Virus record (IMG/VR): IMGVR_UViG_3300031555_007106
From: a virus
Taxonomy: Duplodnaviria; Heunggongvirae; Uroviricota; Caudoviricetes
DNA length: 64,000 nucleotides
Reading direction: 5' to 3' (one strand)
Shown: in pieces, positions 4,743 to 58,485 of the stretch
Numbering within the stretch: position 1 is the stretch's first letter
Layout of the letters: every line of letters begins with the position of its first letter
Notes under the pieces: model-generated
Seen by the model: the letters and a program-made list of their open reading frames with translations, nothing else
The model's database searches: none
Told to the model about the DNA's origin: nothing
Program-made: the position numbers and the translations under genes

Positions 4743-4943
4743 AGGATTCCTCCTTATTTTATTAAAATGTTTGAACTTTTAAAATTTTTCTTCCATTAGG
4801 TAACATCGTGTATATCCATTTTCTCTTCTCTTTTCTTTTCTTTTGTTTATCAAATACTATGTCATATTTTCCGTCATGCATATTCCAAATCGAATGGTCG
4901 AAAATAAAATTTACCATATCTTTCACCTCTTTTTAGCGAATAA

Positions 4944-4971
4944 ACTCCCACCACCTTACAGTGATGGGAGT
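4944..4971 (-). terminator. candidate terminator hairpin downstream of the adhesin gene (11-bp stem ACUCCCAUCAC/GUGGUGGGAGU with one G-U; weak U-tract)
   Basis: actcccaccac-cttaca-gtgatgggagt. Minus-strand tail UUAUUCGC is only moderately U-rich. Confidence 0.45.
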
Positions 4972-5008
4972 ATTCAACTAAGATGTTATATTAACACGAA
5001 AACATCAA

Positions 5009-11161: not shown

Positions 11162-11402
11162 TTTGTTTACTCCTTTTCTGTTTTTCTTAGACGGAAAAAT
11201 CCGCCATTAATAGTATGATAGAATAAATCGAAAATAAAAAACATTCTATCACACATAGCTTACATATATAGTATGATAGAAAAAATGAAAAAAAGTAAAA
11301 CTTTTTCTTTTCTCACATATAGATTTTTAAATATACCATTATAATATATAATTCAAATGAGTTTGTTGCAATCAATACATTAATAACATATATTGAACGT
11401 TC

Positions 11403-11437
11403 AAGAAAAAAAGAACACCGCTATAAAACGGTGTTCT
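11403..11437 (-). terminator. rho-independent terminator of the transglutaminase-like gene
   Basis: 9-bp stem AGAACACCG / CGGTGTTCT with 8-nt loop, followed on minus strand by TTTTTTTCTTG. Confidence 0.8.
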
Positions 11438-11451
11438 TAAAACATTAGTTT

Positions 11452-12384
11452 TTACTTAATCTCAATCTTAATATTCGTTCTTTTGCCATCAGAAACCACT
11501 ACAAGATACACAGGACCTTTCTTCAAGCCCTTAACATACAGAGTACCCGACTTAGACTTAACAAGCTTAGCTCTTTTTGTGTTAGAAAAATAAACCTTAA
11601 CATCATCAGTGTTGTATTCTACAAGCTTATTAAGCTTTATTTTCTTCCCTACCGAAAGGCTTACAGAGGACTTATCGGTTATATCCTTATATTCATAAAG
11701 AGTTCCATCATTGTAGATTTGCATATCTTCCACAAAATTCTTAGGAGGAGAAGGTGGATTATTGATATCATATTCGGTTATACAAGGATTACTTCTTTTT
11801 TCTGTTGCCGAATATCCGTGTTTCTTAGCGAACTGAGCATCAGTCTTTAAAAACCAAACGTACTTATTGGGAGCACAGTCGCTCCAGCAAGCGTCCACAT
11901 TGTACCAGTTGTTATAAATGCGAACTTGGTTCCAATCGTGGCAAAGCTTTCCGCTTGACAAAGTTACGCAAGTTATATCACACTTCTCACATAAGTATTC
12001 GAGTGCATCGGCATACCCGGAACACACAGCCTTACCATTAACAAGACACCATTCCTTAGTAACTTCACCTTCATGTCCTAATAAAAGGTCTCCGGCATCA
12101 TCTGGCAGATATCCGCTTGGATACTTTCCATAGAAATCATAATCATATTCTACGCTATCAAGAACAAAATCATAGATAATCTTAAATCTTTTCCAAAGAT
12201 TATCTTCTTTATTTGCTTTCTTTACAATATCTTCAGTAAACTCTTCTAATTCATCTTTAGAATATTGTAATCTTTGTTTATGTGTCGAACCCTTAGCTAC
12301 GACTTCCGCACTCGCCGTCACACTCATCGCACTAAACATTGTAGTAACTGCCATAACAGCAGCGATTAACCTTTTAAATTTCAT
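11452..12384 (-). CDS. secreted transglutaminase-like cysteine-protease-domain protein with C-terminal Big_2-like Ig domain (310 aa from Met24 of the ORF)
   Basis: ORF 11452..12453. Start moved to MKFKRLIAAVMAVTTMFSAMSVTASA (signal peptide) at 12384 with RBS AAAGGAG 7 nt upstream. Cys-His-Asp pattern: KAVCSGYADALEY...CHDWNQV...NVDACW. C-terminus resembles Big_2. Confidence 0.7.
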   Translation of the reverse strand: MKFKRLIAAVMAVTTMFSAMSVTASAEVVAKGSTHKQRLQYSKDELEEFTEDIVKKANKEDNLWKRFKIIYDFVLDSVEYDYDFYGKYPSGYLPDDAGDLLLGHEGEVTKEWCLVNGKAVCSGYADALEYLCEKCDITCVTLSSGKLCHDWNQVRIYNNWYNVDACWSDCAPNKYVWFLKTDAQFAKKHGYSATEKRSNPCITEYDINNPPSPPKNFVEDMQIYNDGTLYEYKDITDKSSVSLSVGKKIKLNKLVEYNTDDVKVYFSNTKRAKLVKSKSGTLYVKGLKKGPVYLVVVSDGKRTNIKIEIK

Positions 12385-12641
12385 ACATATACTCCTTTCA
12401 AAAAGCATTAAAATTTTATTCTTACACCTATAGTATGATGGAAAATTTCCCAAATCAATAAACTTTTTGCGTTCTCACACACGATTTTTTAAAATTTTCT
12501 GTGTATCATTATATATTATAATAGTATATGTGAGGATTTTCTAAAGTTTTCTACCACATTATACCATATAAGACAATGCAAGTCAAGAAAAAAAGATATG
12601 TAAGAATTTACAGTATATATGAAGAAAAATAAAAAAATATA

Positions 12642-12670
12642 TTGACAAACTCCCGTAAATGCTGTATAAT
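12642..12670 (+). promoter_or_regulatory. perfect consensus sigma-70-type promoter TTGACA-17-TATAAT for the plus-strand operon (150-nt leader)
   Basis: ttgacaaactcccgtaaatgctgtataat. Confidence 0.75.
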
Positions 12671-12826
12671 GAATATCAACAAAACACACGTTTGTGTGAT
12701 AGATAGGATGTTTAAATTATGCAATTAATTAAATTACTTATCGAAGACGCTTATTCGTGAGAATAATAGCGCCTTTTTTAGTATATTTTAAAATTAACGA
12801 CATAATATTAATTAGGTGGGTTCAGT

Positions 12827-13198
12827 TTGAGCGATAAGTTAAAAGCTTTTATTCTTTGGGCGTCTACAATTTTAGTCCTTGCTGTAATTTTATTCACTTT
12901 TGTGATTCCTTTAATAGCATTGTTGGTATTTGCGGTATTTCTCCCTGATGTCGACACAGCGTCTCTTACGGAATTTTCACAAAATGTAAGTTCATTTTTA
13001 GGCTTTACGTCTGTTCTACTTGCGATATTTTCTGTATGGCAAGCTTATAAAGGTAATCAGGAGTTTGGCAAGATTGTAAATGAGTTGCAGAACTTAAAAG
13101 AAATCCAAACCGATTTAATCAGCGCCGTCAAACATTCTTCTGAGCTTTCTTCCGTACCTGCTCAAACCCCTATTTGGAAGAAAGACGAATCAAAATGA
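12827..13198 (+). CDS. small membrane protein (123 aa, two TM helices, C-terminal coiled-coil-like tail); TTG start
   Basis: ORF track. AGGTGGG RBS 5 nt upstream of TTG. Hydrophobic segments ILWASTILVLAVILFTFVIPLIALLVFAVFL and FLGFTSVLLAIFSVW. Confidence 0.55.
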   Translation: MSDKLKAFILWASTILVLAVILFTFVIPLIALLVFAVFLPDVDTASLTEFSQNVSSFLGFTSVLLAIFSVWQAYKGNQEFGKIVNELQNLKEIQTDLISAVKHSSELSSVPAQTPIWKKDESK

Positions 13199-13207
13199 GG
13201 TGATTTC

Positions 13208-13708
13208 ATGTGCATGAAATATATTAATGCTAATGTTTCGTTTTTTGAATCTATTTCTATCGAAAACAATATAGTAGCGAAAATGGAACGCTCTTTTGAT
13301 ACTATATTAGCTACTTCCAACGAAAAGGGAGAATACATTGTTTCGGATTTTTCGTTGTTCACTAGTTTAAATGTAATAGGCACCAATAATCCGGACGAAC
13401 AGAAAAATCATGTTTTACATCAAAAGGGTACTCTTAAAGTGATACTTAGGCTGACTAAATGCAGTACAGATGTTTCAAAACAACTTGGAGCTGATGTGGA
13501 TAGTTTTGAATTTGATTTTTCTAAGATAACTCCAGATATGGCTTGTTATCCTTTTTATTGTTTCACTCGTGTTACACATATGAATGGTATTAATGTCCCA
13601 GAACTAGGAGCATATGTAGTTAAAGTTTTGGTTAAAGATGATTTCACAGATGATTATACAATACAATCTATGCGACGATTAATTATAACTGATAAAATTT
13701 CTTCATAA
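13208..13708 (+). CDS. hypothetical protein (166 aa)
   Basis: ORF track. Follows previous gene by 10 nt with AGGTGA RBS. Ends at the bidirectional terminator. Confidence 0.55.
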   Translation: MCMKYINANVSFFESISIENNIVAKMERSFDTILATSNEKGEYIVSDFSLFTSLNVIGTNNPDEQKNHVLHQKGTLKVILRLTKCSTDVSKQLGADVDSFEFDFSKITPDMACYPFYCFTRVTHMNGINVPELGAYVVKVLVKDDFTDDYTIQSMRRLIITDKISS

Positions 13709-13714
13709 AAAAAA

Positions 13715-13752
13715 CAAAAAAACACAGTATCTTTGGATGCTGTGTTTTTCTT
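13715..13752. terminator. bidirectional rho-independent terminator (ends plus-strand operon 12827-13708 and a short minus-strand transcript)
   Basis: aaaaaaacaaaaaa-ACACAGT-atctttggat-GCTGTGT-ttttctttat: A-tract before and T-tract after the hairpin. Confidence 0.75.
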
Positions 13753-13845
13753 TATATGACAGTATAAATCAAGAAAAATTATATGTCTTATCTTGCTCTG
13801 TTTCATTCGGCCAAACAGTATTCATACATATCTCTTTCTGAGACC
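13715..13845 (-). ncRNA. candidate small RNA (~130 nt) from the 13852-13880 promoter to the shared bidirectional terminator; convergent with the plus-strand operon
   Basis: No ORF longer than 14 codons and no RBS. Internal hairpin CUGUUU-ggccgaaug-AAACAG. Confidence 0.35.
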
Positions 13846-13851
13846 ATGCTC

Positions 13852-13880
13852 GTTATACTACAGGTAGTCTCTGATGTCAA
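13852..13880 (-). promoter_or_regulatory. near-consensus promoter TTGACA-17-TATAAC on minus strand, divergent from the 13952 promoter; preceded by TCTATCATACTAT motif
   Basis: Minus strand: CATACTATAAGTAAAAAATATTGACATCAGAGACTACCTGTAGTATAAC. Confidence 0.55.
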
Positions 13881-13951
13881 TATTTTTTACTTATAGTATG
13901 ATAGAAAAAAATACAAGACTAAAAAAATTTTCAAATTTCTATCTTTTCCTA

Positions 13952-13980
13952 TTGACAAATTAGACTAAATCTGTTATAAT
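13952..13980 (+). promoter_or_regulatory. perfect consensus TTGACA-17-TATAAT promoter driving a ~70-nt terminated transcript
   Basis: ttgacaaattagactaaatctgttataat. Terminator at 14026-14059. Confidence 0.7.
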
Positions 13981-13986
13981 AATAAT

Positions 13987-14059
13987 AAGAGATGGTTATG
14001 TATGTTTTTATATACATACCAATTTAGTCCGTCTGCTCCGCAGATGGACTTCTTTTTTT
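13987..14059 (+). ncRNA. candidate small RNA (~72 nt): two stem-loops (GGUUAUGUAUG...AUACAUACC and terminator); only an 11-codon hydrophobic ORF (MVMYVFIYIPI) without usable RBS
   Basis: Consensus promoter + intrinsic terminator bracket a 70-nt non-coding stretch. No plus-strand gene downstream. Confidence 0.45.
14026..14059 (+). terminator. rho-independent terminator of a short plus-strand transcript
   Basis: AGTCCGTCTG-CTCCG-CAGATGGACT (10-bp stem, one G-U) followed by TTCTTTTTTTG. Confidence 0.75.
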
Positions 14060-16706: not shown

Positions 16707-16956
16707 TTCCGGAATCTCCTTCCATAACAGGATTAAAGAAATTGATACAGTCTGCTGCAGATACAACAATTACTGCAGGACAGAAATTCATAACCATACC
16801 CTGATGAATGTCTTCTGCTACGGTCTTTGTGAACTTCATAGCGGGCTTGCCGGGTTCACATAAAAATGACTTTGTAGTGTTGTTAATCTTAGTAACATAA
16901 GATAAGCTACCATCATCAGATACAACAGCTAAAAAATAATCATACTTCTTTCTCAT
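16699..16956 (-). CDS. hypothetical protein (85 aa); first gene after cassette 1
   Basis: ORF 16699..17013. Its first 19 codons (MTTGVLKNCYYFIMKGKLI) are cassette sequence. Real start MRKKYDYF, preceded by AAAGGAAAA. Confidence 0.6.
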   Translation of the reverse strand: MRKKYDYFLAVVSDDGSLSYVTKINNTTKSFLCEPGKPAMKFTKTVAEDIHQGMVMNFCPAVIVVSAADCINFFNPVMEGDSGNE

Positions 16957-17096
16957 AATTAATTTTCCTTTCATAATAAAATAATAGCAATTCTTTAAAA
17001 CTCCAGTCGTCATAAAATAATTGCTATTTATAGTATGGTAAAAAAGCTGTAAAACAAAAAAGCCCGCCGTAGCGAGCCTTTTTCTTTGTTTTGCTA
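16957..17096 (-). repeat. terminator-promoter-RBS cassette copy 1
   Basis: Matches ~130-bp consensus (minus orientation): TAATAGCAATAAC-AAAGAAAAAGGCTCGC-TACG-GCGGGCTTTTTTG-TTTTAC-GCAAACTTTATCATACTAT-TAGTAGCAATTATTTT-ATGACGACTGGAGTTTTAAAG-AATTGCTATTATTTT-ATTATGAAAGGAAA-N-ATG. Confidence 0.85.
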
Positions 17097-17438
17097 TTAT
17101 TCTGCGTACTTAAACCAAACTAAGTAACAATCATCATCTGCAATGAATTCTGCACTTGTATCAGCATTGTATCTCATTTCGCCATCTAAAAGAACTTCGT
17201 CGTCCTCTATAAGCTCATCATAATATTCCATATTATCGTTTCTGCTAATAATATATATAATTTCAAGCTTAGTAAGTTCTTCTTCAGCGTGGTCGTATTT
17301 GTATGCTACATCGCCAATATCACATCTGCGTTCATTCAGATAATAGTCAACTGCATCTTCGGTATTTTCATTGTACTCAGATAAAGTCCACCATTCTTCA
17401 AGAGTGGAGAGCAACATTCTTTCTTCGTTTGTCAACAT
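17097..17438 (-). CDS. strongly acidic small protein (113 aa)
   Basis: ORF track. About 27% D+E. Stop codon lies inside the cassette-1 TAATAG motif. Confidence 0.65.
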   Translation of the reverse strand: MLTNEERMLLSTLEEWWTLSEYNENTEDAVDYYLNERRCDIGDVAYKYDHAEEELTKLEIIYIISRNDNMEYYDELIEDDEVLLDGEMRYNADTSAEFIADDDCYLVWFKYAE

Positions 17439-22799: not shown

Positions 22800-23300
22800 T
22801 TAACCCATTGGTCCATAACTTTGATTTTCAATTCTTGCCAACTTTAAACGCATCTCATACGCTTCTTGGTCTCTTTCGTTCATCCTTTTCCGAAGACTAT
22901 CTCTATCTTCTATCAAAGCATAGATATGCTGAACAGCTCTTCTTAAACCATCAACATTAGCAGGTAAAAGACCTATCGGAGACTGAACGTATTTTAAAGA
23001 TTCATCATTTTTCGCCGTCGATGAAAAAGGAAATTCATCGTTCACCTCAATATCGCTGAAACCCATCAATACGTGAAGACGATAATCATTCATAGCATCG
23101 TCAAGCGTTTCATTCCATTTGTTACAGTTGTCAGGGATATATCCTGTTTCTGTATCGACAACGCAAAAAGCGAAGAAATATTCACTATTTGGCTTATCAA
23201 GCTTGAATTTATGAAAATCCACATAAATACTCCCCGCATTTCCATCGGGAAGACATTCGACAACAACAGGTGTAATTTCATATCTTTCATCAACTTTCAT
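22800..23300 (-). CDS. hypothetical protein (166 aa); first gene after cassette 2
   Basis: ORF track. AAAGGAAA RBS from cassette. Confidence 0.65.
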   Translation of the reverse strand: MKVDERYEITPVVVECLPDGNAGSIYVDFHKFKLDKPNSEYFFAFCVVDTETGYIPDNCNKWNETLDDAMNDYRLHVLMGFSDIEVNDEFPFSSTAKNDESLKYVQSPIGLLPANVDGLRRAVQHIYALIEDRDSLRKRMNERDQEAYEMRLKLARIENQSYGPMG

Positions 23301-23441
23301 AATATTTTCCTTTCATTAATAAAAATAATAGCAATCTATAACTCCAGTCGTCATAAAATAATTGCTACTAATAGTATGATAAAGTTTGCGTAAAACAAAA
23401 AAGCCCGCCGAAGCGAGCCTTTTTTTCTTTGTTATTGCTTA
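23301..23441 (-). repeat. terminator-promoter-RBS cassette copy 2 (UUCG-loop terminator variant; 3-nt shorter spacer)
   Basis: aaaaataatagcaatctataactccagtcgtcataaaataattgctactaatagtatgataaagtttgcgtaaaacaaaaaagcccgccgaagcgagcc... Confidence 0.85.
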
Positions 23442-27066: not shown

Positions 27067-27420
27067 TTACGTTAAAACGTTTATTAGACAGATAGCTTGT
27101 CTCTCAGCCTCTTCTTCCGAATCATACAATCTTATCTGATTATTCATTTCTTCGCAGCCCATCTGCTCAAAAATGCACTCAGCGATAACACCGTTAGCTT
27201 CATCACCATACTGTTCTCTGATTTCCGATACACTATCATAATATCCCGAAATATATCTGTAGATATCATCTTCAGAATATTCTTCAAGAGAAATGGTAGC
27301 TTCAACAACATAATAACCGTCAGGATAATCGCGAACTTCAACTAACTGAAATTCAGTAGAGTTGAGGTCTCGGCGCCACTGAAGGTCATCTGTTCTTATC
27401 CATCCTCTGGGTAATTTCAT
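27067..27420 (-). CDS. acidic hypothetical protein (117 aa); first gene after cassette 3
   Basis: ORF track. Confidence 0.6.
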   Translation of the reverse strand: MKLPRGWIRTDDLQWRRDLNSTEFQLVEVRDYPDGYYVVEATISLEEYSEDDIYRYISGYYDSVSEIREQYGDEANGVIAECIFEQMGCEEMNNQIRLYDSEEEAERQAICLINVLT

Positions 27421-27553
27421 ATTTATCCTTTCCTTTCATAAAAATAAGCAATAATTTTTAAACTCCGTTCATCATAAAAATATTGCTATACATAGTATGG
27501 TAAAAAAGCCATAAAACAAAAAAAGCCCACCGAAGTGAGCTTCTTTATTGCTA
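27421..27553 (-). repeat. terminator-promoter-RBS cassette copy 3 (divergent; terminator stem carries compensatory GCUCAC/GUGGGC change)
   Basis: ...aaactccgttcatcataaaaatattgctatacatagtatggtaaaaaagccataaaacaaaaaaagcccaccgaagtgagc... Confidence 0.8.
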
Positions 27554-27982
27554 TTATTTTTCTATTATTCTTCTTCGTACGCTTTCCGCCTGTTCCATAG
27601 TCAGAAGATTATTGTTCTTTGCCATATCCTCATTATACCCAAGTTCAGTGCAAATTTTAGCTATCGAAGTTGTTGTCACTCCGAATTCTTCCGCTAGAGC
27701 TTTCATTGAAACAGTCGGCTTTGTTCCTTCTGCAACGCTCGTTTCGGTGTTATCAACTGTCTTTTTCTTGCGTGTAGACTTAGGTAACTTTGTTTCTGCC
27801 TGAGGAGCATCGAAAACTTCGTTTTTCGCATTTTCAAGAAGCTCTTCAAGCATCTCCTTTTTATCCTTGAGGCAATCCTTACGTGCATTCATTATTGCAA
27901 TTTCCGTTTCGCAAGCGGCAATCTCCTTTTTGCACGTTTCAAATTCTTTTGTTATTTTTTCAATAAGAGTCATAATACTCAC
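27554..27982 (-). CDS. coiled-coil protein with C-terminal helix-turn-helix-like segment (142 aa); candidate DNA-binding regulator
   Basis: C-terminus SMKALAEEFGVTTTSIAKICTELGY...LTMEQAESVRRR. Stop codon inside cassette-3 TAATAG. Confidence 0.6.
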   Translation of the reverse strand: MSIMTLIEKITKEFETCKKEIAACETEIAIMNARKDCLKDKKEMLEELLENAKNEVFDAPQAETKLPKSTRKKKTVDNTETSVAEGTKPTVSMKALAEEFGVTTTSIAKICTELGYNEDMAKNNNLLTMEQAESVRRRIIEK

Positions 27983-32830: not shown

Positions 32831-33187
32831 TTACTCTTTTGATAAACTCTGAAGAGTTTGCCAATACGGCATTACGCACTTTTTGAGGTAGCCGCATTCG
32901 TCAATATCAATGTAAGCCTCATTGCCGGATTTGATATCCCCTTCAGACAAGCCCCACAGCATATCGGTGAAGAACAATTCTAAAAGAGGAGATTCAATAT
33001 CAACCAATGTATACCAGATGTGTACGAGAGGTTTAATTGTATCACTACAACTTTCTTCAGTAGGTTCACCGAACGCTGCCACAGTTTCAGGAAATCTTTC
33101 TTTAAATTCTTCAACTGTTAAAGCATATCGTTTGTAGTATCCCTTATAGTTCTCTTCAACAATTACTGCTTTAATGTTTTCTGCCAT
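32831..33187 (-). CDS. hypothetical protein (118 aa); first gene after cassette 4
   Basis: ORF 32831..33205 begins in the cassette RBS (ATGAAAGGAAAG). Start moved to MAENIKAVIV. Confidence 0.6.
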   Translation of the reverse strand: MAENIKAVIVEENYKGYYKRYALTVEEFKERFPETVAAFGEPTEESCSDTIKPLVHIWYTLVDIESPLLELFFTDMLWGLSEGDIKSGNEAYIDIDECGYLKKCVMPYWQTLQSLSKE

Positions 33188-33322
33188 TTTCTTCTTTCCT
33201 TTCATTAAAATAATAGCAATTCTTTAAAACTCCAAACGTCATAAAACAATCGCTACTAATAGTATGATAAAAAAGCCGTAAAACAAAAAAGCCCGCCAAA
33301 GCGGACTTTTTCGCAATATTGC
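33188..33322 (-). repeat. terminator-promoter-RBS cassette copy 4 (terminator stem GUCCGC-UUUG-GCGGGC, compensatory)
   Basis: aaaataatagcaattctttaaaactccaaacgtcataaaacaatcgctactaatagtatgataaaaaagccgtaaaacaaaaaagcccgccaaagcggac... Confidence 0.8.
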
Positions 33323-34042
33323 TTAAAAATTATTCATAGCTTGTTCTTTTTCATAGAGTGCCTGATATTTATTGACATACGCTTCAAGCTTTTTTATAAA
33401 TTTCTCAGCGTCTTTTTTTATGTTGTCATTATCCTCCTCAAATAATTTTTCGAGGTTTTCCATTTCATTATCTCGGAATGCCTCGATTAAATCTCTCTTC
33501 ATTAATGCATATTTGTTCTCAGAAAAATGCCCTAAAGAGTAATGTGCAGAAGGTGTGTGTAAAACCTTGTAATTTACAACTCTCAATCCGGTTGTAGGAC
33601 TATTAGCTTGCACTTTTGGCACTTCACAACTTTCTGTTGTAAAGACAATAATCAGTTCATCCTCTTCTTTCTTATCTTTACCGATAATATAAATACTGTT
33701 ATCTTTATCCAAATTTCTTTTTTCTGCTTGCCTTGAATTATAAAAGCCGCATTTAAGCGGTATACCCATAGACATAAATACATCATTAAGTACATCTGAC
33801 ACACAATGAGAAACACTACTGTTTTTGTAAGAGGACACTATTCGAAGTCTCTGGTTGATAATAGAGTCAAAACCTATACCAACAAGAAACTCCCTAATCG
33901 TCATTCGGTAGAAATCTTCAATTTCCTTTACATCTTTTCTCGGATACAGTTTTCGCAATCGAAAATCCTTTTTAGACTTTTCTATAGTTTTAAAAAAACC
34001 ATCTTCCGCAACAAGCACTTTCTTAGTTTCATACATGCCCAT
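33323..34042 (-). CDS. hypothetical protein (239 aa)
   Basis: ORF track. Stop precedes cassette 4. Confidence 0.65.
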   Translation of the reverse strand: MGMYETKKVLVAEDGFFKTIEKSKKDFRLRKLYPRKDVKEIEDFYRMTIREFLVGIGFDSIINQRLRIVSSYKNSSVSHCVSDVLNDVFMSMGIPLKCGFYNSRQAEKRNLDKDNSIYIIGKDKKEEDELIIVFTTESCEVPKVQANSPTTGLRVVNYKVLHTPSAHYSLGHFSENKYALMKRDLIEAFRDNEMENLEKLFEEDNDNIKKDAEKFIKKLEAYVNKYQALYEKEQAMNNF

Positions 34043-35491: not shown

Positions 35492-36142
35492 TCAAGCTTT
35501 ATAAGATTTTGTATTATTCTCAATTTCTTTTCCTTTAGAGATAAGTTCATCAATAACCTCAATCTTAGCTTTTCTTTCCGCCGATTCACGATTATTTGTA
35601 ACTACAAAAACGAAGAAGATAAGGAATATCACAACTGTAATGGATATAAGAATTATATTTCTTCCATCTGCAACTGCATTTACTTCAGTATCAATATCAG
35701 TTTCTGCTTTATTTATTGTATCTGAAATAGCCTGTTCCATTTCATTCTCATTGTAGTATTTAGTGCTACGCGTTGTGAAATAGCAATTTTCCGATACATG
35801 CTGAGGATACTGCACAACAATTTCATAAACCATAAATGTATCACCTACATTAAACGGTTTATCTGTATAATATGAACCAATATCTCCATCCTCTGCAGTT
35901 GGTTCAATATAGTATTTTCTACTTGTTGTGAAATCTTCTCCTATCTTAACAAATTCAGATTCTTCAACAATATCACTACATATCATTTCTGCAGATGATA
36001 ACTTTATTGACATCTCTGATTTCATGCGACTCCTGTCATTTTCGGCCATTGTAGGTATAACAAACCAGCAGCCTAAAAAGACACCGCAGAGTACGATGAA
36101 CGTAACGACCCAAACTACAATTAAATTCTTCTTTGATAACAT
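35492..36142 (-). CDS. membrane-anchored protein (216 aa; N-terminal TM, C-terminal TM)
   Basis: ORF 35492..36196 starts in cassette 5. Start moved to MLSKKNLIVVWVVTFIVLCGVFLG after AAAAGGAGAA RBS. Confidence 0.6.
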   Translation of the reverse strand: MLSKKNLIVVWVVTFIVLCGVFLGCWFVIPTMAENDRSRMKSEMSIKLSSAEMICSDIVEESEFVKIGEDFTTSRKYYIEPTAEDGDIGSYYTDKPFNVGDTFMVYEIVVQYPQHVSENCYFTTRSTKYYNENEMEQAISDTINKAETDIDTEVNAVADGRNIILISITVVIFLIFFVFVVTNNRESAERKAKIEVIDELISKGKEIENNTKSYKA

Positions 36143-36282
36143 TTTAATTCTCCTTTTAAAATAATTTAAGCAATTTTTAGAACTCCATAACGTCATAAAA
36201 TACTGCTATATATAGTATGAAAGTTTTCTTATAAAATAAAAAGCCCGCCGTAGCGAGCTTTTCTTTGCTATTATCTATTATT
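36143..36282 (-). repeat. terminator-promoter-RBS cassette copy 5 (most divergent)
   Basis: ...aagcaatttttagaactccataacgtcataaaatactgctatatatagtatgaaagttttcttataaaataaaaagcccgccgtagcgagc... Confidence 0.7.
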
Positions 36283-37863: not shown

Positions 37864-38058
37864 TTAGGGTTCACAATGGTTACGTGCAGGACAATAACAG
37901 CAATTAAACCAATTAATACAGTGGAAATTGCCATTTTCATCAAATGCTGCCGCTCCTTCTGCTTCAGTTCCAAGTACAGCCTGATAATTAAGATAATCTT
38001 TTTCAGGGACTTTTCCTTCTGCATATGCTCGTTCAAGCTCCTCAATTGTAAGATACAT
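37864..38058 (-). CDS. Cys-rich small protein (64 aa); first gene after cassette 6
   Basis: ORF 37864..38115 starts inside the cassette. Start moved to MYLTIEELERAY after AAAGGAAG RBS. Confidence 0.5.
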   Translation of the reverse strand: MYLTIEELERAYAEGKVPEKDYLNYQAVLGTEAEGAAAFDENGNFHCINWFNCCYCPARNHCEP

Positions 38059-38202
38059 TATTACGCTTCCTTTCATTAATAAAATAATAGCAATCTTTAA
38101 GACTCCAGTCGTCAATAAATAATTGCTACTAATAGTATGATGAAAAAGGTATAAAACAAAAAAAAGCCCGCCGTAGCGAGCTTTTCTGTTATTGCTATTA
38201 CA
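38059..38202 (-). repeat. terminator-promoter-RBS cassette copy 6
   Basis: taaaataatagcaatctttaagactccagtcgtcaataaataattgctactaatagtatgatgaaaaaggtataaaacaaaaaaaagcccgccgtagcgagc... Confidence 0.85.
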
Positions 38203-43419: not shown

Positions 43420-43953
43420 TCAATCGAGGGTTATCTCCTTACCTTCTTCGTTGTAGGTCAATCGGGTAACAACGAAATATTCTCCGTTTCTGCGTTCAAT
43501 CTTTGTAAGAGTTCCGTTATCAAAGTCATAATCGATATATTTAGTGACGTTTTTTTCTTTTTCACCAAAACCGGAATGAACAATCGCGGGTCTGAAATTC
43601 TTACTGTCGTGACGACGCTCAAACCATCTCCCCTGCTTATCAAGCTCTTCGAAACGAGCACAAATATTCTTCTGAACAAGATTAGCTGTCGCTTCATGTT
43701 TGAAAATCTTAATACGTCTCACAAAACCCTCTGAATTATACACGTCAACTGCATACTCTTCAGTTATAAGGCCCATAATACGCATATAAGTTCTCTTTGG
43801 AAGGCCTGTTTCTTTACAGATAACATTGATAAACTCTTCGTTATCAATATCCATACATTCAAATGCATGATGTGTATTGTTCACCATAAGAATGAATGCC
43901 TTTAACACATCAGCACATTTTTCTTCTTCCATTTCTTTTAACAACCAATTCAT
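43420..43953 (-). CDS. hypothetical protein (177 aa); first gene after cassette 7
   Basis: ORF track. Confidence 0.6.
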   Translation of the reverse strand: MNWLLKEMEEEKCADVLKAFILMVNNTHHAFECMDIDNEEFINVICKETGLPKRTYMRIMGLITEEYAVDVYNSEGFVRRIKIFKHEATANLVQKNICARFEELDKQGRWFERRHDSKNFRPAIVHSGFGEKEKNVTKYIDYDFDNGTLTKIERRNGEYFVVTRLTYNEEGKEITLD

Positions 43954-44092
43954 AATTTAATTCCTTTCATAATAAAAATAATAGCAATTCTTTAAAAACT
44001 CCAATCGTCATAAAATAATTGCTACTAATAGTATGATAAAGTTTGCGTAAAACAAAAAAGCCCGCCGTAGCGAGCCTTTTTTGTTATTGCTA
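43954..44092 (-). repeat. terminator-promoter-RBS cassette copy 7 (near-identical to copy 2)
   Basis: ...ataatagcaattctttaaaaactccaatcgtcataaaataattgctactaatagtatgataaagtttgcgtaaaacaaaaaagcccgccgtagcgagcc... Confidence 0.85.
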
Positions 44093-44242
44093 TTATATAG
44101 GACAGGTATCCTCTCGTTCTTTTTCTCCTTCTTCCACCTCAGGAGAAATAACAGTATTTGTTAATGTACATTTGTACCCAACAACATCCATTAATTCTCC
44201 ATCAATTATAGATTTTCTGTATTCGCATTCTTTGCACTTCAT
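44093..44242 (-). CDS. small Cys-containing peptide (49 aa: MKCKECEYRKSIIDGELMDVVGYKCTLTN...EDTCPI); below ORF-track cutoff
   Basis: Hand-found. GGAGG 7 nt upstream of ATG at 44242. Stop TAA is inside the cassette-7 TAATAG motif. Confidence 0.35.
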   Translation of the reverse strand: MKCKECEYRKSIIDGELMDVVGYKCTLTNTVISPEVEEGEKEREDTCPI

Positions 44243-48854: not shown

Positions 48855-49310
48855 TTAGTAGACACAATGAACACCTGTTTCATTGCCATCTATATCGTAC
48901 TCAATAGCAAGTATTCTGAGCTCGCACCCCTCAGGAACTTCGTCGTCATACTCCTCAATAAAGCTTTCGGCCTCATTGAAAGTATCGAAAGCCGCGATTT
49001 GTTCCACAAAATTCCACTTGTTGGTTTTTTCATTGTAACGAGCAATTTCAACAGCATATTCTGCATATTCCATGATTTCAACATACTCATCTTTTGATAT
49101 GTCACATATAGAACGTATGTAGGAGACAAACTCTTCGGCAGAAAGAGAACAATTTTTAAATTTCGGATTATTTTCACGAATATCTCTTATTATTCTACTC
49201 ATCCAATATTCTTCATCTTCTACGTCAGACAAGTCAGAAGGATAGTTTTCTTTAGGACAAAACTTGCAGTATTCCTTGACAAGCTTCGCATAAATCTTTT
49301 CGTTGTTCAT
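48855..49310 (-). CDS. hypothetical protein (151 aa); first gene after cassette 8
   Basis: ORF 48855..49367 starts in cassette (MTTGVLKNCYYF...). Start moved to MNNEKIYAKL after AAAGGAAAA RBS. Confidence 0.6.
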   Translation of the reverse strand: MNNEKIYAKLVKEYCKFCPKENYPSDLSDVEDEEYWMSRIIRDIRENNPKFKNCSLSAEEFVSYIRSICDISKDEYVEIMEYAEYAVEIARYNEKTNKWNFVEQIAAFDTFNEAESFIEEYDDEVPEGCELRILAIEYDIDGNETGVHCVY

Positions 49311-49490
49311 AACTAATTTTCCTTTCGCAATAAAATAATAGCAATTCTTTAAAACTCCAGTCGTCATAAAATAATTGCTATTTATAGTATGGTAAAAAAG
49401 CCGTAAAACAAAAAAGCCCGCACACGGCGAGCTTTTCTTTTTGTTGCTACTATTTTTACAGTGTTTTCAAATTATCCACAGAGGCGTAAC
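49311..49490 (-). repeat. terminator-promoter-RBS cassette copy 8 (near-identical to copy 1; hairpin variant gcccgcacacggcgagc; ~45-nt extra spacer before upstream stop)
   Basis: aataaaataatagcaattctttaaaactccagtcgtcataaaataattgctatttatagtatggtaaaaaagccgtaaaacaaaaaagcccgcacacggcgagc... Confidence 0.8.
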
Positions 49491-51703: not shown

Positions 51704-51994
51704 TTAATTTGCGGTATGTATCAGAGTTACATTTTCTGCGTGACAAAGATATATGTCGCCGCTTTCCATCGTTATCTGAAGCTGGTCGCTTTCATAATCA
51801 CACCATTCAGTTATATTACCTTCAACAACAACACCGTTCTGAAGACTTATGATAGCTTTATCATAAGTATAAGTTGTGTCAAACAAAGTCTTGTTGCCGG
51901 AACAGTAAGATATAAGTAATGCAATTGCTACACCAATCACACCACAAATCATTACTAAAACAAATACAGTTAAAAACTTATCCTTTTTCTTCAT
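51704..51994 (-). CDS. N-terminally membrane-anchored small protein (96 aa); first gene after cassette 9
   Basis: MKKKDKFLTVFVLVMICGVIGVAIALLISYCSG. Confidence 0.55.
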   Translation of the reverse strand: MKKKDKFLTVFVLVMICGVIGVAIALLISYCSGNKTLFDTTYTYDKAIISLQNGVVVEGNITEWCDYESDQLQITMESGDIYLCHAENVTLIHTAN

Positions 51995-52154
51995 AAAATT
52001 TATCCTTTCATAATAAAAATAATAGCAATTCTTTAAAAACTCCAGTCGTCATAAAATAATTGCTATTAATAGTATGATAAAGTTTGCATAAAACAAAAAA
52101 GCCCGCCGAAGCGAGCCTTTTTCTTTGTTATTGCTATTATTAAAATATTAGTTA
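51995..52154 (-). repeat. terminator-promoter-RBS cassette copy 9
   Basis: aaaaataatagcaattctttaaaaactccagtcgtcataaaataattgctattaatagtatgataaagtttgcataaaacaaaaaagcccgccgaagcgagcc... Confidence 0.85.
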
Positions 52155-57758: not shown

Positions 57759-57988
57759 GCCTCAAACAAATGAGCAATTGAATCATAACCGGGCTTGTTA
57801 CTACCGAAAGATTCGACGTGATAAAGAATAGTTGTTAAAAGACTTTCGTCATTATTAAGGTCAACAAGTTCTCTTTCTTCGTAGTCAGGCTGAAAATTTT
57901 GTTCTCTTGCGATTTCCTCGTAGATATCAAGCAGAATTTTCTGCTCAGCATAAGATACCTCAACGTATTTGCCATAATACTCGTTCAT
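57755..57988 (-). CDS. hypothetical protein (77 aa); first gene after cassette 10
   Basis: ORF track. Confidence 0.5.
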   Translation of the reverse strand: MNEYYGKYVEVSYAEQKILLDIYEEIAREQNFQPDYEERELVDLNNDESLLTTILYHVESFGSNKPGYDSIAHLFEA

Positions 57989-58125
57989 AGTTTATTTTCC
58001 TTTCATAATAAAATAATAGCAATTCTTAAAACTCCTATCGTCAATAAAATATTGCTATTAATAGTATGATAAAGTTTGCATAAAACAAAAAAGCCCGCCG
58101 AAGCGAGCTTTTTCTATTATTGCTA
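57989..58125 (-). repeat. terminator-promoter-RBS cassette copy 10 (near-identical to copy 9)
   Basis: aataaaataatagcaattcttaaaactcctatcgtcaataaaatattgctattaatagtatgataaagtttgcataaaacaaaaaagcccgccgaagcgagc... Confidence 0.85.
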
Positions 58126-58485
58126 TTATTTTTGTGTTTTACACACAGTTTTTGCTATTTTGTAGCCGTAGTTTTGAGTTAAAGTGCATCCAGCCTTGCT
58201 AATTAGCCTTTTGATACGGTTAATAAGCAAGAACTTAAACTTTATCTTCTCTTGAAACATCAGTATAAAACAAACATCAATAGTTCCGTTTGTATGAACG
58301 ATAAACCTTGCATCATCTACTGCATTGTGTTCGAAGTTAGATACTATCCAACCAGCAATATCTGAACAGGTTTTATTGATAAGTTTTTCATCTTTGGCTA
58401 ATAAGCAGGTTGTTAAGACATCTTCTTCAGCCGTTTTTCTTAAATTAAGAACAATTTCTGTTTTTATCTTGCTGTTCGTACACAT
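58126..58485 (-). CDS. hypothetical protein (~119 aa; start uncertain)
   Basis: ORF 58126..58572 overlaps upstream gene. Start at MCTNSKIKTEIV (AAGGAAG upstream) preferred. Stop inside cassette-10 TAATAG. Confidence 0.45.
   Translation of the reverse strand: MCTNSKIKTEIVLNLRKTAEEDVLTTCLLAKDEKLINKTCSDIAGWIVSNFEHNAVDDARFIVHTNGTIDVCFILMFQEKIKFKFLLINRIKRLISKAGCTLTQNYGYKIAKTVCKTQK

What the first reader, a model, noticed from the sequence alone, without database searches (positions are those of the whole stretch)
11205..13916. TCTATCATACTAT box is shared by the surface-protein gene promoters, the sRNA region and every cassette
The 9-13-nt motif (plus strand: ATAGTATGATAGA) occurs twice upstream of the adhesin gene (about 11211 and 11269), once upstream of the transglutaminase-like gene (12430, here 17 nt downstream of a TTGATT -35-like hexamer), once just upstream of the minus-strand TTGACA promoter at 13880, and in all ten cassettes about 16 nt upstream of the ATGACG/-35-like block. 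It is too long and too conserved for a plain -10. It could be a variant -10 (TAcTAT) with flexible -35, an UP/activator site, or the -10 of an alternative or element-encoded sigma factor. Its presence on both the 'host-like' left part and the ORFan array means that either one regulator ties them together or the whole window belongs to one element.
Basis: seen in the sequence. Interest (0 to 1): 0.55.

Follow-up and report, generated by a model that had tools for sequence, protein, structure and literature searches.

The report
Shared promoter box of a mobile-element gene array
A short DNA box (core TCATACTAT) sits in front of the surface-protein genes and of every unit of a huge array of unknown genes; it is most likely the core of a special, non-standard promoter that lets one mobile genetic element switch all these genes on together.

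Summary
On the gene (minus) strand, CATACTAT occurs 14 times: at the 4 "left" sites and in all 10 cassette junctions. All 14 lie in the 7% of the window that is non-coding.

The interpretation needs trimming. The 13-mer is specific to the left sites. In diverged relatives (L091, L092, L086, L082/L090) the conserved part is (T)CATACT-A-W.

Around it there is a T-rich block at about -36 to -26, no TTGACA-like -35, and a T/purine step 7 nt downstream. A covarying hairpin follows directly.

It belongs to a conserved loop motif, GAYGAnnGGAG, which always lies 18-22 nt after CATACT.

Canonical TTGACA-17-TATAAT promoters exist in the same window, and in relatives they replace the box in some units.

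Best reading: the box is the -10 core of a dedicated promoter class. It is read by a sigma factor other than the housekeeping one; its CATA-type -10 resembles sigma G/E/K sites. It drives 13 or more terminator-bounded units of ORFan and anti-restriction-like genes, plus the adhesin genes, on one 193-kb element.

The closest known concept is the repeated "establishment regulon" sequences of pLS20-family plasmids. No start-site data and no sigma gene were available.

The parts
11210..11222 (-). Left-type box 1 (TCTATCATACTAT), proximal to the adhesin gene (ATG at 11161). It is followed after 4 nt by a small hairpin, GGCGGA-TTTT-TCCGTC.
11268..11317 (-). Left-type composite promoter 2: TGTGAGA (11317-11311), N4, AAAAAGTTT (11306-11298), N22, CATACTAT (11275-11268).
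12430..12479 (-). Left-type composite promoter of the transglutaminase-like gene: TGTGAGA (12479-12473), N4, AAAAAGTTT (12468-12460), N22, CATACTAT (12437-12430). The gene's ATG is at 12384.
13893..13905 (-). Left-type box in the non-coding 'sRNA' region. It lies 13 nt upstream of TTGACA (13880-13875), which is followed after 17 nt by TATAAC (13857-13852). The transcript would run to the bidirectional terminator at 13749-13718.
16953..17100 (-). Cassette junction module (approximate limits). Core box CATACTAT at 17037-17030; loop motif at 17011-17001.
23294..23441 (-). Cassette junction module. Core box at 23378-23371; loop motif at 23352-23342.
27415..27562 (-). Cassette junction module (most diverged stem). 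Core box at 27499-27492; loop motif GATGAACGGAG at 27473-27463.
33182..33329 (-). Cassette junction module. Core box at 33266-33259; loop variant GACGTTTGGAG.
36135..36282 (-). Cassette junction module. Core box at 36219-36212 (here TTTCATACTAT); loop variant GACGTTATGGAG.
38055..38202 (-). Cassette junction module. Core box at 38139-38132; loop motif at 38113-38103.
43951..44098 (-). Reference cassette junction module:
- X, TAATAGCAAT with the stop codon of the previous gene: 44097-44083
- terminator stem: 44075-44060
- T-tract TTTTTTGTTTT: 44059-44049
- core box: 44035-44028
- leader hairpin: 44027 to about 43978
- loop motif: 44009-43999
- ribosome-binding site, then ATG at 43953
49307..49454 (-). 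Cassette junction module. Core box at 49391-49384; loop motif at 49365-49355.
51992..52139 (-). Cassette junction module. Core box at 52076-52069; loop motif at 52050-52040.
57984..58131 (-). Cassette junction module. Core box at 58068-58061; loop motif at 58042-58032.
12558..12670 (.). Back-to-back canonical housekeeping-type promoters, used as contrast: TTGACA-17-TATAAT on + (12642-12670) and TTGACT-17-TATAAT with TG on - (12586-12558).
13952..14050 (+). Canonical TTGACA-17-TATAAT promoter (13952-13980) followed by a terminator (14026-14050). This is a candidate small RNA, used as contrast to the box class.

Best explanation
The box is the core (-10-type) recognition element of a dedicated promoter class used by one large mobile element and its relatives.

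**Working model**
- RNA polymerase carries a sigma factor other than the housekeeping one.
- This sigma recognises (T)CATACT at about -13/-12 to -7, helped by a T-rich tract at about -36 to -26. In the array, that tract doubles as the U-tract of the preceding terminator.
- Transcription starts at a purine 7 nt downstream.
- The RNA immediately folds into a 5' hairpin whose apical loop carries GAYGAnnGGAG. The ribosome-binding site of the first gene follows.
- Each array unit is therefore a closed transcription unit: promoter, structured leader, 2-15 unrelated small genes, terminator.
- The same box in front of the adhesin operon and the transglutaminase-like gene puts surface proteins and the array under one switch.

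**What is shown and what is inferred**
- Shown: motif enrichment, position, strand, conservation across diverged elements, and hairpin covariation.
- Inferred: Whether that sigma is host- or element-encoded is unknown.
For: 1. **Position and strand.** All 14 gene-strand copies are intergenic and lie upstream of a gene.
2. **Need for a promoter.** Every array unit is closed by a strong terminator 15-20 nt before the box. A promoter must therefore lie between the terminator and the ribosome-binding site. The only other candidate (ATGACG/TTGACG plus TGCTATTAT) has a variable spacing of 18-22 nt.
3. **Conservation across diverged elements.** L091 and L092 are 42% GC and their methyltransferase is 50-53% identical. 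They keep the same layout with unrelated terminator stems, spacers and leader stems. CATACT does not vary in any of the sites.
4. **Flanking profile.** Across 29 non-identical sites: T at -13 in 26/29, A at -6 in 26/29, T at -1 in 24/29, purine at +1 in 26/29. The -36 to -26 block is T-rich and there is no TTGACA. The TGT form seen in several sites (TGTCATACT) matches the geometry of an extended -10.
5. **Distinct from the housekeeping class.** Perfect TTGACA-17-TATAAT promoters occur in the same window.
6. **Interchangeable with ordinary promoters.** Some units in L091 and L092 carry a canonical promoter in the place of the box. The L082 orthologue of the transglutaminase-like gene also has a canonical promoter where the window has the box.
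7. **Leader follows directly.** A hairpin starts 0-5 nt after the 8-mer. Of its 17 pairs, 15 show changes on both sides, with 85.9% of cells paired against 61% in shuffles and 40-47% in slid controls.
8. **Resemblance to sporulation sigma sites.** From textbook Bacillus subtilis consensus tables, which I recall from memory: CATACTA equals the sigma G -10 (CATxhTA) and is one base from the sigma E -10 (CATACAhT). This is a resemblance, not a test.
9. **Mobile-element sigma factors are a known gap.** Sigma factors of unknown promoter specificity carried on mobile elements are documented in Clostridia (PMC7438776). Sporulation-like sigma factors occur on Firmicute phages (PMC9429907).
Against: - No transcription start data are available.
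- No sigma factor gene was found in about 120 kb of accessible related sequence.
- The -35 regions do not match sigma G, E or K consensus sequences.
- In several sites the leader stem pairs right up to the first base after the 8-mer. If the whole stem must be in the RNA, the start would lie closer to the box than a -10 register allows.
- Invariance of CATACT is partly a product of how the sites were collected.
- The 13 modules of this contig are recent copies of one another and count as roughly one observation.
- The T-rich upstream block may simply be the terminator tail.
Confidence: 0.55

Rival explanations
1. The box is an unusual housekeeping (sigma A) promoter. It would be -10-only or extended-10-like, using TACTAT or CATACT as a weak hexamer, compensated by the T-rich upstream tract and by TG in some copies.
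For: TTGATT-17-TACTAT at 12430 is an acceptable sigma A promoter. TGTCATACT in L091 and L011 has extended -10 geometry. The small elements L082 and L086 use the box with no sigma gene in view.
Against: C at -12 and C at -8 depart from TATAAT, yet they never drift towards the consensus in about 30 independent sites, although true consensus promoters exist nearby. The TACTAT register loses its last T in relatives. No -35 is conserved at 16-18 nt.
Confidence: 0.2
2. The box is an operator or activator site for an element-encoded DNA-binding protein, like the Reg576 dual motifs of p576 EGeRS2. The true promoter would be something else nearby.
For: In pLS20-family plasmids, repeated regulatory sequences before establishment operons carry repressor operators (PMC8708921). 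At 13893 the box lies just upstream of a TTGACA hexamer. The two boxes at 11210 and 11268 are 58 bp apart.
Against: There is one copy per promoter in the array, with no dyad or direct-repeat symmetry. The box keeps a fixed register to the start-like T/purine step and to the leader. No alternative conserved promoter exists in the modules. Upstream partners differ between site classes while the box stays the same.
Confidence: 0.1
3. The box is a promoter for a non-canonical polymerase, either a phage-type single-subunit enzyme or another element-encoded one. The box would end at -1, and transcription would start at the first base of the hairpin.
For: ACTATAG at 12430 and CATACTAT generally resemble the -8 to -1 part of T7/SP6 promoters (CACTATAG). 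That resemblance rests on my own knowledge. The full leader stem begins 0-1 nt after the 8-mer in many sites. Conservation extends over about 15 nt (ATCATACTAwTAnTA) in some classes.
Against: No polymerase-sized gene lies in the window or in accessible flanks. The small integrated elements L082 and L086 carry the box. The base right after the box varies (T, A, G or C). The modules are absent from IMG/VR viral contigs.
Confidence: 0.07
4. The box is not a transcription signal. It would be an RNA processing site next to a protective hairpin, or a recombination or priming site that defines mobile cassettes (integron-attC-like or single-strand initiation site).
For: The modules are true recombination substrates: one sample lacks about 23 kb between two modules, with the junction inside a module. 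Inverted repeats X and X* flank the terminator and the box. L091 encodes a DnaG-like primase within its array.
Against: A strong terminator immediately upstream leaves little read-through RNA to process. The left sites and L082/L086 have the box without cassette junctions. There is no attC-like GTTRRRY core, and no integrase lies next to the array in the accessible parts. The observed junction fits plain homologous recombination in the 3' part of the module, not a break at the box.
Confidence: 0.05

Closest known systems
Establishment gene regulatory sequences (EGeRS1/EGeRS2) of pLS20-family conjugative plasmids (PMC8708921)
   Same: Several operons of mostly unknown "establishment" or anti-defence genes, including orphan DNA methyltransferases, are each preceded by a copy of one conserved regulatory sequence. 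The copies are 62-95% identical while the genes differ. Short inverted repeats in the leader are proposed to stabilise the RNA. The operons cluster as an island.
   Different: There is no sequence similarity. EGeRS2 carries a strong sigma A promoter plus TTATCCCnnTTATCCC operators. EGeRS1 is 400-600 bp, GC-rich and has no promoter. Here the unit is about 150 bp, with a non-consensus box, a single hairpin with a fixed loop motif and an upstream terminator. It is repeated at least 13 times over more than 60 kb. The box also serves the adhesin genes and small integrative elements. No regulator gene was identified.
Promoters of the sporulation sigma factors sigma G / sigma E / sigma K (CATA-type -10), and phage sigma F/G-like factors (PMC9429907)
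   Same: The -10 begins with CATA. CATACTA fits the sigma G -10 consensus and is one base from the sigma E -10, according to consensus tables I recall from memory. SPO1 is reported to have sigma K-like promoters that may be read by its own sporulation-like sigma (PMC9429907).
   Different: The -35 elements of sigma G (GhATr, 18 bp), sigma E (14 bp) and sigma K (AC, 17 bp) are absent at the right spacing (my reading and 59 sequences). The upstream region is instead a T-tract. No link to sporulation is shown, and no sigma gene is seen.
Early-gene arrays of large Firmicute phages (SPO1 host-takeover module, SP82 early RNAs with conserved 5' stem-loops) — from my own knowledge
   Same: Many short transcription units of small ORFan genes, each with its own strong promoter, a conserved structured 5' leader and a terminator, all on one strand.
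   Different: Those promoters are sigma A consensus. Here the modules are absent from IMG/VR and from the phage collection. The element also carries sortase-type adhesins, and its methyltransferase family is typical of conjugative plasmids.
Frpo / ssi single-stranded-DNA promoters of plasmid leading regions (PMC11541004)
   Same: Co-oriented leading-region-like genes (methyltransferases, anti-restriction-type ORFans) are preceded by structured non-coding DNA.
   Different: In Frpo the -35 and -10 are formed by intrastrand pairing. Here the box is unpaired in the predicted single-strand fold and lies between two hairpins.

Membership tests
Housekeeping sigma-70/sigma-A promoter | -35 TTGACA-like hexamer 16-18 nt upstream of the -10 | tested here: not met
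   Profile of 29 sites: -35 to -30 reads TTTT(G/T)(T/G). Only 12430 has TTGATT at 17 nt.
Housekeeping sigma-70/sigma-A promoter | -10 hexamer TATAAT-like, with A at position 2 and T at position 6 | tested here: inconclusive
   CATACT keeps A at position 2 and T at position 6 (4/6 overall), but C at positions 1 and 5 never varies. The TACTAT register loses T6 in relatives.
Extended -10 promoter | TG at -15/-14 directly upstream of the hexamer | tested here: inconclusive
   TGTCATACT occurs in L011-8126 and in 4 L091 sites. Most sites have AT, AC or TT instead.
Sigma G / sigma E / sigma K-type (sporulation) promoter | -10 CATxhTA / CATACAhT / CATAnnnTA | tested here: met
   CATACTA(T/A) appears in nearly all sites. 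The consensus sequences are quoted from memory, not from a tool.
Sigma G / sigma E / sigma K-type (sporulation) promoter | Matching -35 (GhATr at 18 bp; kmATAww at 14 bp; AC at 17 bp) | tested here: not met
   Read by eye on the sequences: a T-tract occupies these positions.
Sigma G / sigma E / sigma K-type (sporulation) promoter | Expression dependent on that sigma, or on sporulation | not testable with these tools
   No expression data and no host genome.
Frpo-type single-stranded-DNA promoter | -10 and -35 formed as duplex within a long hairpin of the transferred strand | tested here: not met
   DNA fold of a module: in the centroid fold only the terminator hairpin and the X:X* stem pair and the box is unpaired; the minimum-energy fold adds weak pairs across it.
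EGeRS1/EGeRS2 (pLS20 family) | Sequence similarity above 60% to EGeRS1 or EGeRS2; Reg operators TTATCCCnnTTATCCC | tested here: not met
   There is no plasmid-collection match to a module beyond chance 30-43-nt hits. No TTATCCC repeats are in the module alignment.
EGeRS1/EGeRS2 (pLS20 family) | Conserved sequence repeated before several operons of establishment or anti-defence genes on a conjugative element | tested here: inconclusive
   The repeats and gene types fit. However, no relaxase, T4SS or oriT is seen in the accessible 78 kb of the contig.
Integron attC / cassette array | attC with RYYYAAC...GTTRRRY cores, adjacent intI, promoterless cassettes | tested here: not met
   No such cores appear in the conserved module. 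Each unit has its own promoter-like box and terminator. No integrase is in the window.
MITE (e.g. Correia-like element) | Terminal inverted repeats, target duplication, both orientations, scattered insertion | tested here: not met
   X and X* form a 10-13 nt inverted repeat. Even so, all 13 copies share one orientation and span exactly from stop codon to start codon.
T7-like single-subunit RNA polymerase promoter | About 20-nt conserved promoter ending at +1, with a cognate polymerase gene on the element | tested here: inconclusive
   There is a partial resemblance (ACTATAG). No polymerase gene lies in the accessible sequence, and the rest of the contig is unread.
Any Rfam RNA family (for the leader) | Score at or above the gathering threshold | tested here: not met
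   No hit at gathering threshold in the window. Only terminator-like sub-threshold hits fall on a module.

The most novel reading that the evidence does not exclude
The box and the leader loop together may mark a self-contained transcription system of a family of large, uncultivated Firmicute mobile elements.
- A dedicated sigma (or polymerase) would read TCATACTAW.
- A trans-acting factor would recognise the GAYGAnnGGAG loop at a fixed +14 position on the nascent RNA. It could be an antiterminator, or a CsrA- or ProQ-like translational regulator.
- Together they would switch on a modular array of more than 60 kb of anti-defence or establishment cassettes, along with the adhesins.
- The same 150-bp modules serve as portable recombination joints that add, delete and shuffle cassettes. 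This would be an integron-like cassette economy run by homologous recombination instead of an integrase.
Probability: 0.2. Interest if true: 0.8.

Novelty: new variant of a known kind. Interest (0 to 1): 0.58.

Why it matters
If the box is a private promoter class, it gives a simple sequence handle for three tasks. The first is finding the co-regulated "entry" or anti-defence gene sets of a large, so far undescribed family of gut and rumen mobile elements. The second is delimiting their transcription units. The third is predicting which surface adhesins are switched on with them.

It would also supply the first promoter consensus for a mobile-element-associated sigma factor in Clostridia, a gap stated explicitly in PMC7438776. 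More than a hundred ORFans would become candidates for anti-defence screening. Finally, the fixed promoter-to-loop spacing points to a regulatory RNA element that is not in Rfam.

Tried and rejected
**Searches that found nothing useful**
- Megablast of 25 kb of the array against the phage and plasmid collections gave no match.
- A distant blastn of one module against plasmids gave only chance 30-43-nt hits.
- A module pattern scanned in IMG/VR gave 67 single hits, all unrelated on inspection.
- The composite left-type pattern in IMG/VR gave nothing.
- A module pattern in GTDB genomes gave one chance hit, in a Gammaproteobacteria MAG coding region.
- Two metagenome scans gave nothing, then one eukaryote-like chance hit. 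The collection evidently lacks the source samples, since the same pattern matches 8 times in the window.
- Rfam found nothing at the gathering threshold, nor with permissive E-value searches on a module and on the 12.4-14.4 kb non-coding region.
- There are no tRNAs.
- A Clostridium botulinum 210-kb plasmid carrying the best plasmid homologue of the methyltransferase has no box modules. Neither do the first 50 kb of Butyrivibrio proteoclasticus pCY186.
- Literature searches for CATACTAT, CATACTA and TCATACTA found nothing relevant.

**Ideas considered and dropped**
- TATCAT as the -10: its A at position 2 is not conserved.
- An antisense promoter, TATGAT on the plus strand: its last T is not conserved, and it would fire into a terminator.
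- A leader peptide starting at ATGACG: there is no ribosome-binding site, and the ATG is absent in L091 and L086.
- The leader hairpin as an attenuator: the U-tract after it is not conserved in relatives.
- Using the ends of contig L013 (which starts exactly at CATACTAT) as start-site evidence: this is probably an assembly break.


Full report
**1. Checking the observation**

The plus-strand 13-mer ATAGTATGATAGA is exact at 11210, 11268 and 13893. It has one mismatch at 12430. It recurs with 1-2 mismatches at 17030, 23371, 27492, 33259, 36212, 38132, 44028, 49384, 52069 and 58061. That makes 20 matches at up to 2 mismatches, against 3.66 expected, and 0 of 100 shuffles reach 20.

All long ORFs of the window are on the minus strand except two at 12827-13708. 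The motif should therefore be read as TCTATCATACTAT.

The part that never varies is CATACTAT. It occurs 14 times on the gene strand and once on the other strand. First-order Markov simulations give a mean of 2.4 and a maximum of 8. All 14 copies fall in the roughly 7% of the window that is non-coding; the script scored 13 of 14, binomial about 2e-14 (the 14th lies under a spurious ORF call).

However, the 5' TCTAT is specific to the four left sites.

**2. What surrounds the box in the array**

The ten array copies sit in a junction module of about 150 nt. The module is about 85% conserved, while the genes between modules are unrelated: 107 ORFs give only 5 weak paralogue pairs.

Read on the gene strand, a module contains, in order:
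- the stop codon region of the last gene, within TAATAGCAAT (element X)
- a GC-rich terminator hairpin
- TTTTTTGTTTTA
- 10-12 variable nt
- (A/C)(T/C)CATACTAT
- an 11-bp stem (TAGTAGCAATT / AATTGCTATTA) enclosing ATTTTATGACGAnnGGAGTTTTTAAAG
- a U-rich stretch
- GAAAGGA
- ATG

The module therefore spans exactly from stop codon to start codon.

**3. Source and extent**

The window is the reverse complement of positions 118,977-54,978 of JGI metagenome contig Ga0307249_10001143 (193,036 bp).

Upstream, the array continues with three more modules (L011 positions 1019, 5466, 8126) and more ORFans. Downstream of the adhesin come genes of 51, 1797 and 2691 aa.

The 2050-aa protein has a thioester domain, eight SpaA/Cna-B-type domains, a signal peptide and a sortase-type anchor.

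Only about 8 of the 107 array ORFs hit Pfam:
- two orphan DNA methyltransferases (DUF4942; N6_N4_Mtase)
- thymidylate and deoxynucleoside kinases
- DUF4314, DUF3268, DUF5983 and a DUF3848-like protein
- an SPFH protein

Among the best 5000 plasmid matches to the DUF4942 methyltransferase, 4179 are on conjugative plasmids. This content, together with the one-strand arrangement, resembles the anti-defence or establishment islands of plasmid leading regions (PMC11541004; PMC8708921).

A large phage or phage-plasmid is not excluded. No relaxase, T4SS or phage structural gene lies in the 78 kb I could read.

**4. Related sequences**

Nucleotide searches in the phage, plasmid, IMG/VR, GTDB and metagenome collections found no relatives. 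Protein look-ups did.

*(a) L091 and L092.* L091 comes from an 87.6-kb contig. Both loci are 42% GC, and their methyltransferase is 53% and 50% identical to the window's. They are similar ORFan arrays, carrying a DnaG-like primase, a ProQ-like protein, DUF4314, SPFH, a pentapeptide protein and SocA.

Their intergenic regions keep the architecture but not the sequence: varied terminators, TTTTTGTTTT, 10-16 nt, (A/T/G)TCATACTA(A/T), then in about half of the sites a hairpin with an unrelated stem and the loop GACGAATGGAG, then the ribosome-binding site. There are about 12 such sites in L091. L092 has TCATACTTT, TCATACTTC and CATACTCG.

*(b) L086.* This locus lies next to a resolvase. It has CATACTAT followed by a hairpin with the stem TGTAGAT/ATCTACA and the loop GACGAGAGGAGG.

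*(c) L082 and L090.* L082 is an integrative element next to secA, carrying int and xis. L082 and L090 both carry TGTGAGA-N4-AAAAAGTTT-N23-CATACTAT. This is the same composite as at window 12479 and 11317, where the spacer is 22 nt.

The core conserved across lineages is therefore (T)CATACT-A-W, not the 13-mer.

**5. Profile of the sites**

I aligned 29 non-identical sites on CATACT.

| Position (numbering the hexamer as -12 to -7) | Finding |
|---|---|
| -36 to -26 | T-rich, with T at -29 to -27 in 26-29 of 29 sites and G at -31/-30 |
| -35 region | nothing TTGACA-like |
| -13 | T in 26/29 |
| -6 | A in 26/29 |
| -5 | T in 20/29 |
| -1 | T in 24/29 |
| +1 | purine in 26/29 |
| +2 | G in 17/29 |

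This is the signature expected of a -10 element with a start 7 nt downstream. Several sites read TGTCATACT, which has extended -10 geometry.

The alternative registers fail. TACTAT loses its last T in relatives. TATCAT lacks a conserved A at position 2.

CATACT itself was the search key, so its invariance is partly a product of ascertainment. The flanks were not.

**6. Why a promoter, and why not the housekeeping type**

Each array unit follows a strong terminator. It therefore needs its own promoter within the roughly 100 nt before the ribosome-binding site.

The only other candidate in the module is ATGACG/TTGACG with TGCTATTAT. Its spacing varies between 18 and 22 nt, and only one copy passes the scan.

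Perfect TTGACA-17-TATAAT promoters occur at 12642(+) and 13952(+), and TTGACT-17-TATAAT with TG at 12586(-). The host consensus is therefore ordinary, and the box class is distinct from it.

In L091 (intergenic region 6992) and L092 (intergenic region 4988), a canonical promoter occupies the place of the box after a terminator. The L082 orthologue of the transglutaminase-like gene has TTGAAA-17-TATAAT where the window has the box. The box region and ordinary promoters are thus interchangeable.

C at -12 and C at -8 never drift towards TATAAT in about 30 sites. This argues for a reader with its own specificity.

From consensus tables that I recall from memory, CATACTA equals the sigma G -10 (CATxhTA). 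It is one base from the sigma E -10 (CATACAhT), and in some sites it fits sigma K (CATAnnnTA). The matching -35 elements, however, are absent.

Two published points bear on this. Mobile-element sigma factors with unknown consensus are noted for Clostridioides difficile (PMC7438776). Sporulation-like sigma factors occur on Firmicute phages, with sigma K-like promoters suspected in SPO1 (PMC9429907).

I found no sigma gene in the accessible DNA.

**7. The leader**

A covariance model was built from the 13 modules. It recovers leaders in L091 (7 sites), L092 (2-3), L086, L082 and L090.

On the 15 matches in the related loci (13 of them diverged leaders, plus two hits, one per strand, on a window-type module in L097):
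- 85.9% of cells pair, against 61% in shuffles (0 of 500 reach the observed value) and 40-47% for slid partners
- 15 of 17 pairs show changes on both sides

One caveat applies: the alignment is fitted to the model.

Independently of the model, the stems differ outright between lineages: TAGTAGCAATT, TATGTAGAT, TGAGAATCG, ATAGAATCATT and TATTAGCATTTATAT. L082 and L090 differ by three compensatory pairs.

The loop motif GA[CTG]GAnnGGAG occurs 18 times on the gene strands of the window, L091, L092 and L086. It always lies 18-22 nt (mode 20) after CATACT and never anywhere else.

The motif is not in Rfam. Its role is unknown. Candidates are a 5' stabiliser, a target of an RNA-binding regulator (there is a GGA in the loop and another in the ribosome-binding site), or a cis-acting element on the polymerase.

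**8. Two promoter sub-classes share only the box**

- Array type: a T-tract containing G, 14-15 nt before CATACT.
- Left type: TGTGAGA-N4-AAAAAGTTT, 22-23 nt before CATACT. This type is seen at 12479, at 11317, and in L082/L090.

The sites at 11210 and 13893 have neither. That the upstream partners change while the box stays is what one expects of a -10 element combined with different upstream inputs.

**9. Rivals**

- An unusual sigma A promoter remains possible (0.2).
- An operator, as in p576 EGeRS2, is less likely (0.1). There is a single copy per promoter, no symmetry, and a fixed register to the start-like step.
- A non-canonical polymerase promoter ending at -1 (0.07) is suggested by stems that pair up to the first base after the 8-mer, and by the ACTATAG resemblance. 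No polymerase gene is in view, and small elements also use the box.
- A processing, recombination or priming site (0.05) is not favoured.

The modules are nevertheless real recombination substrates. In sample ERZ27248436 (L097), the gene preceding module L011-5466 is joined through an L011-5466-type module to the 44028 cassette. About 23.3 kb and five cassettes are missing. The crossover lies in the 3' part of the module.

An Frpo-type single-strand promoter is excluded, because the box is unpaired in the single-strand fold.

**10. Verdict**

The thing itself is a promoter-plus-leader unit repeated before every transcription unit of a very large ORFan or anti-restriction-type array, and used, with other upstream elements, for the surface-protein genes of the same element.

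The closest known concept is the establishment regulon of pLS20-family plasmids (PMC8708921). This unit shares no sequence with it, and it has a different promoter type, scale and leader.

I rate it a new variant of a known kind, of moderate to good interest. The limits are the lack of start-site data and an unidentified reader.

Noticed in passing
window modules, e.g. 44027-43978 (loop 44009-43999); L091 928, 2587, 9953, 14216, 16412, 19155; L092 2218, 8265, 12238; L086 4821: A conserved 5' leader hairpin whose apical loop carries GAYGAnnGGAG. The motif always lies 18-22 nt after CATACT. The stems covary (15 of 17 pairs), and there is no Rfam family. A second GGA lies in the ribosome-binding site, so a CsrA-like or other RNA-binding regulator is conceivable.
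   Followed up: partly
window modules: X at e.g. 44097-44083, X' at 44027-44017, X* at 43988-43976: The stop-codon element X (TAATAGCAAT) and the leader 5' arm X' (TAGTAGCAATT) are near-direct repeats. Both are complementary to the 3' arm X* (AATTGCTATTA). The 3' end of one unit could therefore pair with the next leader, or with its own 5' leader. In 5 of the 10 junctions, and again at the last cassette (~14381), the stop codon is the TAA of X. X is absent from L091.
   Followed up: partly
L097 (ENA ERZ27248436) compared with L011 5406-5540 and window 44035-43951: A natural variant lacks about 23.3 kb (five cassettes) between two modules. The junction lies inside the 3' part of a module. The modules therefore act as homologous-recombination joints for cassette loss and shuffling. 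The downstream module of L013 also differs from the reference.
   Followed up: partly
L082 7876-7740 and L090 955-1085: Downstream of the box in these integrative elements, the hairpin loop GGAGG serves as the Shine-Dalgarno sequence of a conserved 15-17-aa leader ORF: MKKGARGPPYLFIIP in L082 and MKKSARSPPYIIIITSF in L090. It precedes a 350-aa gene, then (in L082; L090 ends after the next ORF) xis and int. The upstream 60 nt are nearly identical between the two, while the 350-aa protein is only 59% identical.
   Followed up: partly
window 12642-12800 (+) and 13952-14050 (+): Two perfect TTGACA-17-TATAAT promoters are each followed within about 100 nt by a terminator. They are candidate small RNAs with no Rfam match. 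The second converges on the end of the last cassette. The surrounding 12.45-14.4 kb is the only gene-poor stretch, and it could hold an origin or oriT.
   Followed up: partly
window 3-11161 (-) and L007 10176-20156: An operon of giant surface proteins: 2050 aa (thioester domain plus 8 SpaA/Cna-B domains, with a PT-rich stalk and an NPETG-like sorting signal), then 51 aa, 1797 aa and 2691 aa (DUF5018).
   Followed up: partly
window 14000-64000: There is a strong, uniform GC skew of about -0.22 on the plus strand across the whole array, against about -0.06 to -0.12 in the left part. The coding strand is markedly G over C.
   Followed up: no
window 12827-13708 (+): These are the only two plus-strand genes: a 123-aa membrane protein and a 166-aa protein. 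Neither has a family match. They are wedged between the box promoters and conserved in all related contigs (L001-L008).
   Followed up: no
L013 (Logan SRR25400510), ends: This contig starts exactly at CATACTAT and ends in the T-tract of the next terminator, so it covers one transcription unit. This is probably an assembly break at repeats or at strain variation. If that run is RNA, it would bear on the start site.
   Followed up: no
L082 9830-10000: The orthologous transglutaminase-like gene of the integrative element is driven by a canonical TTGAAA-17-TATAAT promoter followed by 3-4 GACATCAA repeats, opposite an XRE-family repressor gene. Orthologues have thus exchanged promoters.
   Followed up: no
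L091 642, 6362, 7931, 12400, 14086, 14868: A sub-class of box sites reads CAATCATACTAWTA and has no GACGAATGGAG hairpin. The TGTCATACTA and TTTCATACTA sites do have it. These may be two regulatory classes within one array.
   Followed up: no
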